Origin: an uncultured Pseudomonadota bacterium
Lineage (GTDB): Bacteria; Babelota; Babeliae; Babelales; CAIQNR01
NCBI GenBank assembly: GCA_964433415.1
Contig: CAYSQM010000003.1
Span: forward strand, 9,563-73,562
Length of the DNA: 64,000 nt
Direction: 5' to 3'
Made by a program: the position numbers and the translations under genes. The notes under the pieces are model-generated. The model did not search any database. It was not told the DNA's origin and saw only the letters and a program-made list of their open reading frames with translations. Every line of letters starts with the position of its first letter. The first letter of the stretch is position 1. Of this stretch, positions 49,662 to 51,116 are shown piece by piece.

Positions 49662-51116
49662 ATGAAAAGAATGGGTCTTCTTATAATTACTGCATTAAGT
49701 TGTTTTTCAAGTAGTACTCTTTTTGCAAAAAAAGGTGATCGTTGTGTTGTGCTTGTAAGTACAGGGTTTGATAATAATGGTCTAAGTAAAATTGCTGTAA
49801 AATTATCAAAACAAGCTAATGCCATAGTACGCTCTCAAATAGCAAGCTGGAGTCCTCATACTGCAGAAAGAGGTTCTGTTGTCTTACAAGGATATATGCT
49901 TCCCCCAACTATTATGCGAGAACATTTAGAAATTTTTTTTACTCAAGGTATGAATATTGACTGCAAAAAAATTCTTTCTGAGATAAAGGCTGCTAAAGAC
50001 AAAGAGATTAATCTTGAAGATAGATTATGGATATCATCAAGAGCGCATGTCATAATGCCTTATCATTGTTTGCTTGGAGAATTAGATAATAAAAAAGGAA
50101 GACGTAAAGCCTATGATTTTTCCGCTGAACGGCGTGGTATTTCATGGTGTGATGCAGACAAACGTTTACGTGGCGGCATTCGGATTGCAGATCTTATGGA
50201 TGGAAAAAATAGAAACAATCGAATCAAAGAAGAAGTTGAACATGCTAATATTATTATCAAAGAAGTATATGGCGGAACTCCTCTTGACGTTAAAGCTATT
50301 CAAAAAGATTTTGCAGAATATGCAATTCAATTAAAGCCATATGTAAAAGATAATATTGAAATAATTCTTAATCAGATGCTTGCCGCAGGCAAATCAGTTA
50401 TTATTGAAGCCACTGGCGGCACCTTTTTAGATGTTGGGCTAGGAACCGTACCGTTTGTAAGTTCTTCTGCTACTACTGCTGCAGGAGCTTGTGCAGGTGC
50501 AGGAATTGGTCCAAAAAGAGTAGGTGAGGTTATTGGAGTTATGAAAGCCTACAGCACACGTTCAGGAAAAGGTCCATTTCCTACAGAAACTAATGATTCT
50601 GTTATTATTGATCGATTTAAAAAGATCAATAAACATAATCTGTTAGAAAAAAAGAAAAACGTCATTCCCTTTGCAGCTGCCTCTAACGAAATACAACAAA
50701 ATTGTGAAATTTTATGTGAATGCGATACCAACGTCCGCTTTGGCTGGCTTGATTTAGTACTAGTACGTCAAGCAATTTTAATCAATAGTATAGATACGTT
50801 AGCACTAACAATGCTTGACGGATTAGACGATTTTGACGAAATTTTAGTGTGCTATGATTACGTACTTGATGGTAAAAACATTGATTACCTTCCCCCGCTG
50901 GTAACTGATGCCCTACGCGTCAAACCACGATATATGAAATTTAAAGGCTGGAAATGTTCAACTCAACAGGCTAAAAGGTTTAGTGATCTTCCTGAAGAAG
51001 CACGCTATTTTATTAAAAAAATAGAACTTCTCTGTAATAATACACCTATAGATTATATTTCAGTTGGCCCAGACAATTCTCAAACCATTGTAGTACAAGG
51101 TTCTTTAGTATTATAA
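49662..51116 (+). CDS. Adenylosuccinate synthetase-like protein with signal peptide and degenerate active-site motifs
   Basis: The C-terminal two thirds are clearly PurA-like (KAYSTRSGKGPFPTE, FGWLD, ISVGPD). However, GDEGKGK is FDNNGLS, GHNAGHT is ASWSPHT, TTGRRRR is DTNVRF and (S/T)KLD is TMLD. The N-terminus MKRMGLLIITALSCFSSSTLFA looks like a Sec signal. Confidence 0.7.
   Translation: MKRMGLLIITALSCFSSSTLFAKKGDRCVVLVSTGFDNNGLSKIAVKLSKQANAIVRSQIASWSPHTAERGSVVLQGYMLPPTIMREHLEIFFTQGMNIDCKKILSEIKAAKDKEINLEDRLWISSRAHVIMPYHCLLGELDNKKGRRKAYDFSAERRGISWCDADKRLRGGIRIADLMDGKNRNNRIKEEVEHANIIIKEVYGGTPLDVKAIQKDFAEYAIQLKPYVKDNIEIILNQMLAAGKSVIIEATGGTFLDVGLGTVPFVSSSATTAAGACAGAGIGPKRVGEVIGVMKAYSTRSGKGPFPTETNDSVIIDRFKKINKHNLLEKKKNVIPFAAASNEIQQNCEILCECDTNVRFGWLDLVLVRQAILINSIDTLALTMLDGLDDFDEILVCYDYVLDGKNIDYLPPLVTDALRVKPRYMKFKGWKCSTQQAKRFSDLPEEARYFIKKIELLCNNTPIDYISVGPDNSQTIVVQGSLVL

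What the first reader, a model, noticed from the sequence alone, without database searches (positions are those of the whole stretch)
49662..51116. Adenylosuccinate synthetase homolog with a secretion signal and eroded GTP/IMP-binding motifs
The protein is unmistakably PurA-like in its core (VMKAYSTRSGKGPFPTE, RFGWLDLVLVRQAILINSIDTLALT, DYISVGPD). Compared from memory with E. coli PurA, nearly every substrate-binding signature is altered. The P-loop GDEGKGK is FDNNGLS, GGHNAGHT is IASWSPHT, GTTGRGIGPAYEDK is SAERRGISWCDADK, and GAQGTLLDIDHGTYP is ATGGTFLDVGLGTVP. The Asp/IMP loop TTGRRRR is DTNVRF, and the guanine-specificity (S/T)KLD is TMLD. The N-terminus (MKRMGLLIITALSCFSSSTLFA-KK) looks like a cleavable Sec signal, which no canonical PurA has. 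There is also an insertion (KKINKHNLLEKKKNVIPFAAASNEIQQNCEILCE). This looks like a PurA fold repurposed as a pseudoenzyme or for a new, possibly extracytoplasmic, activity. PurA-fold repurposing has precedent in phage PurZ, but PurZ keeps its nucleotide-binding motifs.
Basis: partly seen in the sequence, partly recalled or inferred. Interest (0 to 1): 0.65.

Follow-up and report, generated by a model that had tools for sequence, protein, structure and literature searches.

The report
Exported, catalytically dead PurA homolog
An intracellular parasitic bacterium of the order Babeliales, a group reported to lack purine synthesis, keeps a copy of the purine enzyme adenylosuccinate synthetase that has gained an export signal and lost its catalytic residues, yet is still conserved by selection, so it most likely now works outside the cytoplasm by binding something rather than by catalysis.

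Summary
ORF 49662-51116 (+) encodes a 484-aa protein that matches PF00709 over its full length (E 6e-101). It scores below every NCBIfam PurA cut-off (338 vs 402 bits). Its AlphaFold model superposes on solved adenylosuccinate synthetases (AdSS) with TM 0.90-0.94.

Mapped on E. coli PurA, these sites are lost:
- the catalytic base (D13N), K16L and N38W
- the IMP-phosphate binders (T128A, T129E) and Q224G
- the whole aspartate loop

H41, K18, R143, R147, D333 and S414/G416/P417 remain.

The protein belongs to a monophyletic family of about 20 known clusters, and the only named source organisms are Babeliales (Dependentiae). Every member has an MKK-plus-hydrophobic Sec-type leader preceded by a Shine-Dalgarno site, and every member lacks the aspartate loop.

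Within the family the catalytic loops are the least conserved segments. The dimer-interface helix and the C-terminal guanine-pocket subdomain are the most conserved. dN/dS is about 0.2. That is the signature of a pseudoenzyme, not of a decaying gene or a divergent AdSS.

Best reading: an exported (periplasmic, lipid-anchored or secreted) non-catalytic PurA-fold protein that acts by binding. What it binds is unknown. I found no description of it in the searchable literature. It is a new variant of a known kind, of moderate interest.

The parts
49650..49654 (+). Shine-Dalgarno-like AAGGA, 7 nt before the ATG
   Evidence: Sequence read; scored. Every homolog examined has AAGGA, AGGAG or AAGGAGG 5-8 nt before its MKK start.
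49662..51116 (+). Complete ORF (484 aa plus stop): exported, catalytically degenerate adenylosuccinate-synthetase-fold protein
49662..49727 (+). N-terminal Sec-type leader MKRMGLLIITALSCFSSSTLFA (aa 1-22): n-region MKR, hydrophobic core GLLIITAL, possible SPase I site after LFA
   Evidence: Heuristic. A leader is present in all clade members. None of 240 canonical PurA has a true leader; the 5 heuristic positives are hydrophobic beta-1 strands. AlphaFold pLDDT is below 50-73 here.
49692..49703 (+). Lipobox-like ALSC (aa 11-14), an alternative SPase II site with lipidation at Cys14
   Evidence: Read by eye from the sequences. The same ALSC is seen in P0002, and lipobox-like xxSC/xxAC in P0122, P0125 and P0127. 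It is not conserved across the family and was not tested with LipoP.
49733..49751 (+). Internal AGGTGATC followed 8 nt later by in-frame GTG (codon 30): a possible minor start for a leaderless isoform
   Evidence: Found only in the window's gene. P0002 and P0003 have no in-frame start codon between codons 2 and 45, so it is probably fortuitous.
49740..51098 (+). AdSS-fold domain (aa 27-479)
   Evidence: PF00709 covers residues 31-476. AlphaFold mean pLDDT 87.7, pTM 0.87. Foldseek against PDB AdSS gives target-normalised TM 0.90-0.94.
49770..49790 (+). Degenerate P-loop DNNGLSK, aligned to E. coli G12-D13-E14-G15-K16-G17-K18: catalytic base D13 is N and K16 is L; G15 and K18 are kept
49839..49862 (+). 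IASWSPHT, aligned to E. coli GGHNAGHT: N38 is W and G40 is P; H41 and T42 are kept
50121..50162 (+). SAERRGISWCDADK, aligned to E. coli GTTGRGIGPAYEDK: the IMP 5'-phosphate binders T128 and T129 are A and E
50154..50195 (+). ADKRLRGGIRIADL, the dimer-interface helix (K140, R143, R147 equivalents): one of the two most conserved segments of the family, with clade-specific R168
   Evidence: Invariant D166, K167, R168, G172, I173, R174 and D177 among the first 12 members. Segment identity 0.65 in the clade against 0.50 in canonical PurA. Clade-specific V141R.
50406..50453 (+). EATGGTFLDVGLGTVP, aligned to E. coli EGAQGTLLDIDHGTYP: Q224 is G
50598..50735 (+). Replacement of the aspartate-binding loop (E. 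coli 286-305) by a longer, mostly disordered insert (aa 313-358) holding the mini-motif IPFAAASN (aa 335-342) and CEILCEC
   Evidence: HMMER does not align aa 314-356. pLDDT is 35-57 for aa 331-356. T300, T301, R303 and R305 are absent in all clade members. IPFxxASN is shared by the window protein, P0002 and P0003.
50808..50819 (+). TMLD, aligned to E. coli T-K331-L-D333 (guanine specificity): D kept, K is M
   Evidence: D333 is kept in 95% of the clade.
51060..51071 (+). SVGP, aligned to E. coli S414-T-G416-P417 (guanine O6 contact): kept
   Evidence: S414 and G416 are kept in 100% of the clade.

Best explanation
**What it is.** The gene encodes a member of a small family of adenylosuccinate-synthetase (PurA/AdSS) fold proteins. 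The only named source organisms are Babeliales (Dependentiae), and I found no description of the family. Its members have been turned into exported pseudoenzymes.

**Shown here:**
- The protein is translated from the ATG at 49662 with a Sec-type leader, cleavable by SPase I after A22 or lipidated at the ALSC lipobox-like site.
- The rest folds as an AdSS.
- The residues needed to phosphorylate IMP (D13, K16, N38), to hold IMP (T128, T129, Q224) and to bind aspartate (T300, T301, R303, R305) are gone, so it cannot make adenylosuccinate.
- The gene is nevertheless kept intact and under purifying selection across about 20 diverged lineages.
- Within the family, constraint has moved off the catalytic loops onto the dimer-interface helix (ADKRLRxGIRxADL) and the C-terminal subdomain that forms the guanine pocket (D333, S414, G416, P417).

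**Inferred:**
- After Sec export the protein sits in the periplasm or envelope, or is passed on by the type II secretion system that Dependentiae carry.
- It remains a dimer.
- It acts by binding rather than catalysis. The candidate ligands are a guanine nucleotide (more plausible for the larger sub-clade that keeps G15/G17/K18/K331/Q224 than for the window's own sub-clade) or a partner protein.
- The setting is an obligate intracellular parasite that imports all its nucleotides.
For: **Homology and fold.** PF00709 at E 6e-101. AlphaFold pLDDT 87.7 and Foldseek TM 0.90-0.94 to solved AdSS.

**Not a PurA equivalog.** 338 bits against a 402 cut-off.

**Site-by-site loss.** Of the 91 columns at least 90% conserved in 230 canonical PurA, the clade keeps 40 and loses 31. 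The lost ones cluster in the P-loop, the 35-42 loop, the 127-137 loop, 221-224, 267-273 and 296-305.

**Inverted conservation, clade against canonical:**

| Segment | Clade | Canonical |
|---|---|---|
| P-loop | 0.36 | 0.70 |
| GGHNAGHT loop | 0.29 | 0.74 |
| TTGRGIGP loop | 0.39 | 0.78 |
| Aspartate loop | 0.22 | 0.57 |
| Interface helix | 0.65 | 0.50 |
| Residues 306-340 | 0.65 | 0.51 |

**Purifying selection.** dN/dS is 0.18-0.23 for the window gene against its two closest homologs. The same comparisons give 0.10-0.20 for transketolase and 0.09-0.12 for nrdA.

**Monophyly.** 100 of 100 neighbour-joining bootstraps.

**Leader.**
- Present in all clade members and in no true canonical PurA (0 of 240).
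- A Shine-Dalgarno site precedes the MKK start in every homolog examined.
- Cytosolic housekeeping enzymes in the same window score negative.

**Organism.** The window's AtpA is 79% identical to its best named hit, from 'Candidatus Babeliales bacterium'. One family member is named as Babeliales. Synteny is conserved across 13 loci.

**Biology from the literature.** Dependentiae lack all nucleotide biosynthesis, use nucleotide translocases and encode a type II secretion system (PMC4776705). In C. destructans 44% of coding sequences carry signal peptides (PMC6561590).

**No partner genes nearby.** No purB and no second purA in the window or in about 175 kb of related loci.
Against: - Export rests on a home-made heuristic plus family-wide conservation. 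SignalP and LipoP were not run and there is no experimental localisation.
- The early mature region (KKGDR) is positively charged, which is not ideal for a Sec substrate.
- No ligand or partner is identified.
- In the window's own sub-clade the GTP site is also damaged (K16L, G17S, G40P, K331M), so nucleotide binding is doubtful for this particular protein.
- Conservation of D333 and S414 could be structural rather than ligand-related.
- dS is close to saturation, so dN/dS values are approximate.
- Whether the genome has a canonical purA or purB elsewhere could not be checked.
- Two database proteins combine a leader with near-canonical or canonical catalytic residues (P0134, P0141). A leader therefore does not by itself imply loss of activity.
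Confidence: 0.6

Rival explanations
1. It is a neofunctionalised enzyme. The PurA scaffold, exported to the periplasm or the host, still binds GTP and transfers phosphate or ligates a new acceptor that replaces IMP and aspartate.
For: Several elements are kept in most members: the guanine-recognition residues, H41 (63%), K18 (84%) and G15 (89%). The aspartate loop is a hot spot for insertions, 25-90 aa long, and the window sub-clade's insert carries a conserved mini-motif, IPFxxASN. Purifying selection is clear.
Against: The former catalytic loops are the least conserved parts of the family. Different sub-clades keep different subsets of pocket residues. Only a handful of clade-specific conserved residues exist (G35, R168, E233, K431, R448, K452), and they do not form an obvious new catalytic constellation. 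The catalytic base D13 and K16 are lost in most members.
Confidence: 0.15
2. The hydrophobic N-terminus is an uncleaved membrane anchor, or the window gene also makes a leaderless cytosolic isoform from the internal GTG at 49749. The protein would then work at or inside the cytoplasmic membrane rather than being released. A possible partner is the NfeD/stomatin (Band_7) pair that precedes it in most genomes.
For: Positive charges flank both sides of the hydrophobic core (MKR ... KKGDR). AGGTGATC lies 8 nt before the in-frame GTG at codon 30. NfeD-Band_7 sits directly upstream of the gene in 9 of the 13 loci compared.
Against: The hydrophobic cores are short (8-14 residues) and are followed by small-residue c-regions, which is typical of cleaved signals. 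The internal SD+GTG is unique to the window, and P0002 and P0003 have no alternative start at all. The NfeD-Band_7 pair is absent from the whole 64-kb window. Intergenic gaps of 120-175 nt argue against tight translational coupling.
Confidence: 0.12
3. It is a decaying relic of purA left over after loss of purine synthesis, with no function.
For: The organism's group lacks nucleotide biosynthesis (PMC4776705). Active-site residues are eroded. The family is rare: 13-20 clusters among 5.8 billion proteins, and 6 loci in the JGI metagenome motif scan.
Against: The ORFs are intact in every one of more than 20 diverged lineages. dN/dS is about 0.2. Leader, Shine-Dalgarno site and synteny are conserved. 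Several segments are more conserved than in canonical PurA. The fold is predicted with high confidence.
Confidence: 0.04
4. It is still a working adenylosuccinate synthetase with an unusual active site.
For: Full-length PF00709 match. NCBI names one family member 'adenylosuccinate synthetase'. H41, R143 and the guanine pocket are kept.
Against: D13N, K16L, N38W, T129E and Q224G, with T300, T301, R303 and R305 absent. From my own knowledge of the E. coli enzyme literature, single substitutions at D13, H41, K16, R303 or R305 already abolish or cripple activity. K16Q, R143L and R303L mutant structures appear among the PDB hits. The score is below all NCBIfam equivalog cut-offs. No purB is nearby.
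Confidence: 0.03

Closest known systems
Adenylosuccinate synthetase (PurA/AdSS, EC 6.3.4.4; Pfam PF00709; e.g. E. coli PurA 1ADE/1CG3, B. thailandensis 3UE9)
   Same: Same fold over the full length (TM 0.90-0.94, 30-32% identity). Same dimer-interface helix with K140, R143 and R147. Same guanine-recognition residues D333, S414, G416 and P417. H41 and K18 are kept.
   Different: It has an N-terminal Sec-type leader. The catalytic base D13, K16, N38, T128, T129 and Q224 are lost. The whole aspartate loop is replaced by a longer disordered insert. It scores below the equivalog cut-offs. The mature protein is basic (pI 8-9.4 in 18 of 19 members, against a mean of 6.4 for canonical PurA). No purB is adjacent, whereas the nearest canonical relative, P0014, sits next to purB.
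Phage PurZ / PurZ0 / DgsS (succino-aminodeoxyadenylate synthase; PDB 7ODX, 7VF6, 6FM1)
   Same: Another case of the PurA fold being put to a new use.
   Different: PurZ is an active cytosolic enzyme that keeps its nucleotide and aspartate sites. The window protein is only distantly similar to it: NCBIfam PurZ model 43 bits against a 300 cut-off, and Foldseek TM 0.55-0.58 at 13-16% identity. It is chromosomal in a bacterium, not in a phage.
Leader-bearing PurA proteins that keep most or all catalytic residues (P0134, P0141; unnamed metagenomic proteins)
   Same: Same kind of N-terminal MxK-plus-hydrophobic leader on an AdSS fold. P0141 falls next to the clade in the neighbour-joining tree, and its contig carries a zf-MYND gene, as the window does.
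   Different: P0141 keeps all 17 catalytic and substrate residues scored; P0134 keeps 15 of 17. Neither groups with the clade in bootstraps (0 of 100). Their organisms are unknown.
Bacterial pseudoenzymes and Sec-signal-bearing candidate effectors of Dependentiae (e.g. signal-peptide-bearing ankyrin proteins of Chromulinavorax destructans, PMC6561590)
   Same: A Sec leader on a protein of an obligate intracellular parasite whose proteome is unusually rich in signal peptides. Loss of catalytic residues together with retained purifying selection.
   Different: No PurA-derived member of this class turned up in the literature library I could search.

Membership tests
Adenylosuccinate synthetase (PurA, EC 6.3.4.4) | AdSS fold with a full-length PF00709 match | tested here: met
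   E 6.1e-101, model positions 2-416 of 416. Foldseek TM 0.90-0.94 to PDB AdSS.
Adenylosuccinate synthetase (PurA, EC 6.3.4.4) | Score above the curated equivalog cut-off (NCBIfam NF002223 / TIGR00184) | tested here: not met
   338.3 bits against 402, and 309.2 against 395.55.
Adenylosuccinate synthetase (PurA, EC 6.3.4.4) | P-loop GDEGKGK with catalytic base D13 and K16 | tested here: not met
   DNNGLSK: D13N, E14N, K16L and G17S; G15 and K18 are kept.
Adenylosuccinate synthetase (PurA, EC 6.3.4.4) | GGxNAGHT loop with N38 and catalytic acid H41 | tested here: inconclusive
   H41 and T42 are kept. N38 is W, G40 is P, and G35 and G36 are lost.
Adenylosuccinate synthetase (PurA, EC 6.3.4.4) | IMP-binding residues T128, T129, Q224 and T239, plus R143 from the partner subunit | tested here: not met
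   T128A, T129E, Q224G and T239S. Only R143 is kept, as R170.
Adenylosuccinate synthetase (PurA, EC 6.3.4.4) | Aspartate-binding loop G298-x-T300-T301-G-R303-x-R305 | tested here: not met
   Absent in the window protein and in all 19 clade representatives.
Adenylosuccinate synthetase (PurA, EC 6.3.4.4) | Guanine specificity elements (S/T)-K331-L-D333 and S414-x-G416-P417 | tested here: inconclusive
   D333, S414, G416 and P417 are kept. K331 is M in the window sub-clade and K or R in most other members.
Adenylosuccinate synthetase (PurA, EC 6.3.4.4) | Enzymatic formation of adenylosuccinate, and a pathway context (purB, an IMP supply) | not testable with these tools
   No purB or second purA in the 64-kb window or in about 175 kb of related loci. 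The literature says Dependentiae lack nucleotide biosynthesis (PMC4776705).
PurZ (succino-aminodeoxyadenylate synthase) | Score above the NCBIfam NF038379 cut-off, and close structural similarity to PurZ | tested here: not met
   43.3 bits against 300. TM 0.55-0.58 at 13-16% identity.
Sec-exported proteins (SPase I or lipoprotein signal peptide) | Positively charged n-region, uncharged hydrophobic core and a small-residue c-region within the first 35 residues or so, translated from the annotated start | tested here: met
   Crude heuristic: positive for all clade members, with no true positive among 240 canonical PurA. A Shine-Dalgarno site precedes the leader's ATG in every homolog. SignalP and LipoP were not available, so the cleavage type and site remain unresolved.
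Sec-exported proteins (SPase I or lipoprotein signal peptide) | Experimentally extracytoplasmic location or a processed N-terminus | not testable with these tools
   No proteomic or localisation data were found.
Pseudoenzyme (catalytically inactive homolog kept by selection) | Loss of essential catalytic residues | tested here: met
   D13, K16, N38 and the aspartate loop are lost.
Pseudoenzyme (catalytically inactive homolog kept by selection) | Purifying selection and conservation outside the former active site | tested here: met
   dN/dS 0.18-0.23. Catalytic loops are the least conserved segments; the interface helix and the C-terminal subdomain are the most conserved.
Known anti-phage defence proteins (PADLOC-DB) | Match to any PADLOC model | tested here: not met
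   No family at E up to 0.01.

The most novel reading that the evidence does not exclude
The family is a secreted effector or periplasmic scavenger built from a dead AdSS. After Sec export, and possibly type II secretion, the dimeric scaffold would use its preserved guanine pocket or its preserved dimer-interface helix on the host's purine economy. It could sequester GTP or GDP, or pair with the host's own adenylosuccinate synthetase, which needs a partner subunit's R143 to complete its active site. Either route would help a nucleotide parasite divert host purines. The two leader-bearing PurA proteins that keep most or all catalytic residues (P0134, P0141) would then represent an earlier stage in which an active AdSS already worked outside the cytoplasm.
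Probability: 0.12. Interest if true: 0.75.

Novelty: new variant of a known kind. Interest (0 to 1): 0.52.

Why it matters
PurA is one of the most uniform housekeeping enzymes known. The only recognised repurposing of its fold is phage PurZ, which is still an enzyme. This finding is a lineage-wide case in an obligate intracellular parasite group said to lack purine synthesis altogether. The fold has been given an export signal, stripped of its catalytic and substrate loops, and then kept by selection.

Three things follow.
- **Annotation.** NCBI currently names one family member 'adenylosuccinate synthetase'. Metabolic reconstructions of Dependentiae genomes that count it as an AMP-synthesis step would be wrong.
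- **A candidate to study.** It is a concrete, clonable envelope or secreted factor in a phylum whose host-interaction machinery is almost entirely unknown.
- **A natural experiment.** It shows which parts of the AdSS fold matter once catalysis is no longer required.

Tried and rejected
- **Genome-contig scan.** I scanned with the clade alignment to obtain organism names and whole-genome context.
- **Foldseek against afdb50.** The library was not available.
- **Motif scan of JGI metagenomes, ADKR[LF]xxGIRxxD.** Of 39 hits, 33 were chance matches and 6 were true family loci.
- **Ancient hflKC-purA linkage.** I tested whether the NfeD-Band_7 to PurA-like adjacency reflects the linkage seen in E. 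coli. None of 82 canonical-purA loci from other phyla has a Band_7 or NfeD gene nearby, so I dropped the idea.
- **Internal GTG start at codon 30.** I considered it as a way to remove the leader. It is unique to the window gene, so I rejected it as the main product.
- **Cysteine content as an export indicator.** The clade averages 7.6 Cys per mature protein against 6.3 in canonical PurA. This is uninformative.
- **Basic pI of the clade.** The shift is real, but the canonical PurA P0014, from a contig of 28% G+C, is also basic. I treat it as weak evidence only.
- **PADLOC.** No match, so there is no defence-system connection.
- **Literature searches.** No description of exported or inactive bacterial PurA homologs turned up.
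Full report
**1. The observation**

AAGGA lies 7 nt before the ATG. The protein matches Pfam PF00709 (adenylosuccinate synthetase) end to end at E 6.1e-101. It falls below the curated cut-off of every NCBIfam PurA equivalog model, at best 338 bits against 402. 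It scores only 43 against 300 on the PurZ model.

Against PDB sequences it aligns to AdSS from Burkholderia, E. coli, Bacillus and others (E 1e-63 to 1e-68). The alignment comes in two blocks, aa 26-313 and 357-479, and aa 314-356 is left unaligned.

An AlphaFold model built on an 81-sequence alignment is confident (mean pLDDT 87.7, pTM 0.87). The exceptions are the first 25 residues or so and aa 331-356. Foldseek places the model on solved AdSS structures with target-normalised TM 0.90-0.94. PurZ, PurZ0 and DgsS reach only 0.55-0.58 (query-normalised).

**2. Site mapping on E. coli PurA**

I fetched E. coli K-12 purA and mapped literature-numbered residues.

| E. coli PurA element | Window protein | Lost | Kept |
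|---|---|---|---|
| P-loop G12-D13-E14-G15-K16-G17-K18 | D37-N-N-G-L-S-K43 | catalytic base D13, K16 | G15, K18 |
| GGHNAGHT | IASWSPHT | N38 (W), G40 (P) | H41, T42 |
| IMP-phosphate loop GTTGRGIGP | SAERRGISW | T128 (A), T129 (E) | - |
| EGAQG | EATGG | Q224 (G) | - |
| T239 | S267 | T239 (S) | - |
| Aspartate loop | longer insert, aa 313-358 | T300, T301, R303, R305 | - |

These residues are retained: R306-x-G308-W309-x-D311 (as RFGWLD), K140, R143 and R147 on the interface helix, and D333, S414, G416 and P417 of the guanine pocket. K331 is M.

The correction is that the guanine-recognition residues, H41 and K18 are not eroded.

**3. It is a family, not a one-off**

A search of 5.8 billion proteins found an identical protein plus 11 relatives at 38-68% identity. 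Below them come ordinary PurA at 38% identity or less. A full HMMER scan of 1.84 billion cluster representatives added about eight more.

All of them share two features:
- an N-terminal MKK-plus-hydrophobic leader of 20-28 residues;
- complete loss of the aspartate loop.

The clade is monophyletic in 100 of 100 neighbour-joining bootstraps. On a clade profile its members score 589 bits or more. The nearest canonical protein, P0014, scores 513.

The family is rare. It comprises about 13-20 clusters at 90% or 50% identity, nearly all singletons from metagenomes. A clade-specific motif scan of 241 million JGI metagenome records recovered only 6 loci.

One member is named 'adenylosuccinate synthetase [Candidatus Babeliales bacterium]'. 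The window's ATP synthase alpha subunit is 79% identical to its best named hit, which is from Candidatus Babeliales.

Gene order is conserved:
- In nine loci: tkt, PGAP1-like (-), NfeD, Band_7, PurA-like, then CorC (-) and rpoD (-).
- In the window's sub-clade (four loci): trx, nrdA, nrdB, ..., tkt, PurA-like, GT4, orf518.

The window is therefore a Babeliales (Dependentiae, TM6) chromosome segment, and the gene is vertically inherited in that group.

**4. Is the leader real?**

- Every homolog examined has AAGGA, AGGAG or AAGGAGG 5-8 nt before the MKK start.
- P0002 and P0003 have no alternative in-frame start codon before codon 45.
- The window alone has an internal AGGTGATC plus GTG at codon 30, which I regard as fortuitous or at most a minor isoform.
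- A crude n/h/c heuristic scores all clade members positive.
- It scores 5 of 240 canonical PurA positive, and inspection shows all five are hydrophobic beta-1 strands, not leaders.
- It scores 16 of 48 ORFs in the window positive. Transketolase, RNR, AtpA, dNK, Ddl, MurE-like, iPGM and TsaD are negative.

The high background agrees with the report that 44% of C. destructans coding sequences carry signal peptides (PMC6561590).

The window protein and P0002 also have a lipobox-like ALSC, so lipoprotein processing at C14 is an alternative to SPase I cleavage after A22. SignalP and LipoP were not available. Export is therefore well supported but not proven.

**5. Pseudoenzyme, new enzyme or relic?**

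*Selection.* dN/dS between the window gene and its two closest homologs is 0.18-0.23. The same comparisons give 0.10-0.20 for the adjacent transketolase, 0.09-0.12 for nrdA and 0.20-0.33 for the downstream orf518. dS is near saturation, so these values are approximate. All ORFs are intact. That excludes a decaying relic.

*Where the constraint lies.* The most informative result is, which compares mean pairwise identity within the clade and within canonical PurA.

| Segment | Clade | Canonical PurA |
|---|---|---|
| P-loop | 0.36 | 0.70 |
| GGHNAGHT loop | 0.29 | 0.74 |
| TTGRGIGP loop | 0.39 | 0.78 |
| Aspartate loop | 0.22 | 0.57 |
| Interface helix ADKRLRxGIRxADL | 0.65 | 0.50 |
| Residues 306-340 | 0.65 | 0.51 |
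| Residues 341-410 | 0.49 | 0.36 |

In canonical PurA the catalytic loops are the most conserved segments. In the clade they are the least conserved. The interface helix and the C-terminal region behave the other way round.

*Pocket residues.* Different sub-clades keep different subsets of pocket residues. D13 and K16 survive in a few members, and Q224 in about a third. Only a few clade-specific conserved residues exist: G35, R168, E233, K431, R448 and K452.

This pattern is what a pseudoenzyme looks like. Constraint has left the active site and moved to other surfaces. It argues against a new catalytic activity in the old pocket.

*What remains.* The only ligand site still conserved family-wide is the guanine-base pocket: D333 at 95%, S414 and G416 at 100%, and K331 as K or R in 15 of 19. 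G15 (89%) and K18 (84%) of the P-loop also persist. Guanine-nucleotide binding may therefore survive, at least in the larger sub-clade. In the window's own sub-clade K16L, G17S, G40P, K331M and T129E make even that doubtful.

**6. Biological setting and mechanism**

Dependentiae are obligate intracellular parasites of protists. According to PMC4776705 they lack all nucleoside and nucleotide biosynthesis downstream of ribose-5-phosphate. They import nucleotides with NTT translocases and encode a type II secretion system with two gspD copies.

The window itself carries nucleotide-salvage and conversion genes (deoxynucleoside kinase, nrdAB with a thioredoxin-domain gene next to them) but no purB and no second purA. 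Neither does about 175 kb of related loci. By contrast, the nearest canonical relative, P0014, lies next to an adenylosuccinate lyase gene.

My reading has a shown part and an inferred part.
- **Shown:** the protein has an AdSS fold, carries an export-type leader, cannot make adenylosuccinate, and is under selection.
- **Inferred:** it is exported by Sec to the periplasm or envelope, or onward by type II secretion. It stays dimeric. It works by binding a guanine nucleotide or a partner protein.

The mature proteins are basic (pI 8.0-9.4 in 18 of 19 members, against a mean of 6.4 for canonical PurA). Metabolic enzymes in the same window have pI 5.1-6.7. This hints at a change of environment or partners. 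A canonical PurA from a contig of 28% G+C (P0014) is also basic, so the hint is weak.

**7. Comparison with what is known, and novelty**

The closest family is PurA itself. The fold test is met, but the defining catalytic, IMP and aspartate features are tested and not met. The protein should therefore not be filed, or annotated, as adenylosuccinate synthetase.

PurZ is the only known repurposed PurA fold. It is an active phage enzyme and only a distant relative of this protein.

Two database proteins combine the same kind of leader with catalytic residues: P0141 keeps all 17 sites scored and P0134 keeps 15 of 17. P0141's contig carries a zf-MYND gene, like the window. They suggest the leader may have preceded the erosion, but the tree does not resolve this.

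I found no paper that links Dependentiae to adenylosuccinate synthetase, or that describes exported or inactive bacterial PurA homologs.

**8. Verdict**

This is a new variant of a known kind: a lineage-specific, exported PurA-derived pseudoenzyme family. Interest is moderate (0.52). It is surprising for so uniform a housekeeping enzyme, it corrects an annotation that would mislead metabolic reconstructions, and it offers a testable envelope or effector candidate. Its function is unknown and the family is small.

Noticed in passing
L083/L084 8376-11407; L085 8418-11374; L092 6423-9488; also L101, L106, L110, L114, L115: In nine Babeliales loci the PurA-like gene lies directly downstream of an NfeD plus Band_7 (stomatin/SPFH) gene pair on the same strand, with a gap of 120-175 nt. 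The pair is absent from the whole 64-kb window. E. coli purA also follows an SPFH pair (hflK-hflC), but none of 82 canonical-purA loci from other phyla has a Band_7 or NfeD gene nearby. The meaning of the adjacency is unexplained.
   Followed up: partly
P0134 (L088 8001-9371) and P0141 (JGI sample 3300072015, no DNA available): Two metagenomic PurA proteins keep most or all catalytic and substrate residues (P0134 15 of 17, P0141 17 of 17) yet carry an N-terminal signal-like leader. This raises the possibility of an active AdSS outside the cytoplasm. Their organisms are unknown. P0141's contig has a zf-MYND gene, as the window does.
   Followed up: partly
window 49733-49751: AGGTGATC, a strong anti-SD complement, lies 8 nt before an in-frame GTG at codon 30 of the PurA-like gene. 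A leaderless isoform could start there. The feature is not conserved in any homolog.
   Followed up: yes
window 52317-53873 (+): A 518-aa ORF with no Pfam hit has an N-terminal hydrophobic anchor and an IGIGGGGGH motif. It is conserved downstream of the PurA-like gene or the GT4 gene in L090 and L091 (54-61% identity, dN/dS 0.2-0.3). From my own recollection the motif resembles MGDG-synthase or MurG-type glycosyltransferases. Together with the GT4 gene at 51124-52278 it may form a glycolipid-synthesis pair.
   Followed up: partly
window 35685-36266 (-): A 193-aa protein carries a MYND zinc finger (PF01753, E 4e-10), a domain I know mainly from eukaryotic proteins. It is a candidate host-interaction protein.
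   Followed up: no
window 91-2925 (+) and 2997-6683 (+): Two very large adjacent ORFs (944 and 1228 aa) have no Pfam match at E 1e-5. The second has a signal-like N-terminus.
   Followed up: no
window 18021-21572 (-): A 1183-aa protein has MscS channel domains only in its last 180 residues or so, preceded by a roughly 1000-residue extension of unknown nature that starts with a signal-like N-terminus.
   Followed up: no
window 54064-56385 (-): A 773-aa protein contains two tandem D-Ala-D-Ala ligase modules, with Dala_Dala_lig_N and Dala_Dala_lig_C each matched twice.
   Followed up: no
window 57275-57667 (-), 58198-58728 (-) and 7113-7186 (-): A tmRNA gene (RF00023, 136.6 bits) lies close to an ORF that corresponds to the SmpB-domain gene called on the identical contig L001. 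There is also a single tRNA gene.
   Followed up: no
window 10540-11307 (-), 37461-39431 (+) and 40222-44865: The window carries nucleotide-salvage and energy genes typical of a nucleotide parasite: a deoxynucleoside kinase (PF01712), an H+-pyrophosphatase, and nrdA and nrdB next to a thioredoxin-domain protein with a hydrophobic N-terminus.
   Followed up: no
window 50664-50687 (aa 335-342), and the equivalent positions in P0002 and P0003: Inside the otherwise variable, disordered insert that replaces the aspartate loop, a short motif IPF-x-x-ASN is conserved in the three members of the window's sub-clade. CExLCEC is shared by the window protein and P0002 only. It could be a short linear interaction motif.
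   Followed up: no
L093 10001-12923: The nearest canonical relative of the clade (P0014, on a contig of 28% G+C) sits directly upstream of an adenylosuccinate lyase (purB) gene. The contig also has a peptidoglycan gene cluster that includes a MurC-Ddl fusion. It is a useful contrast to the purB-less context of the degenerate family.
   Followed up: partly
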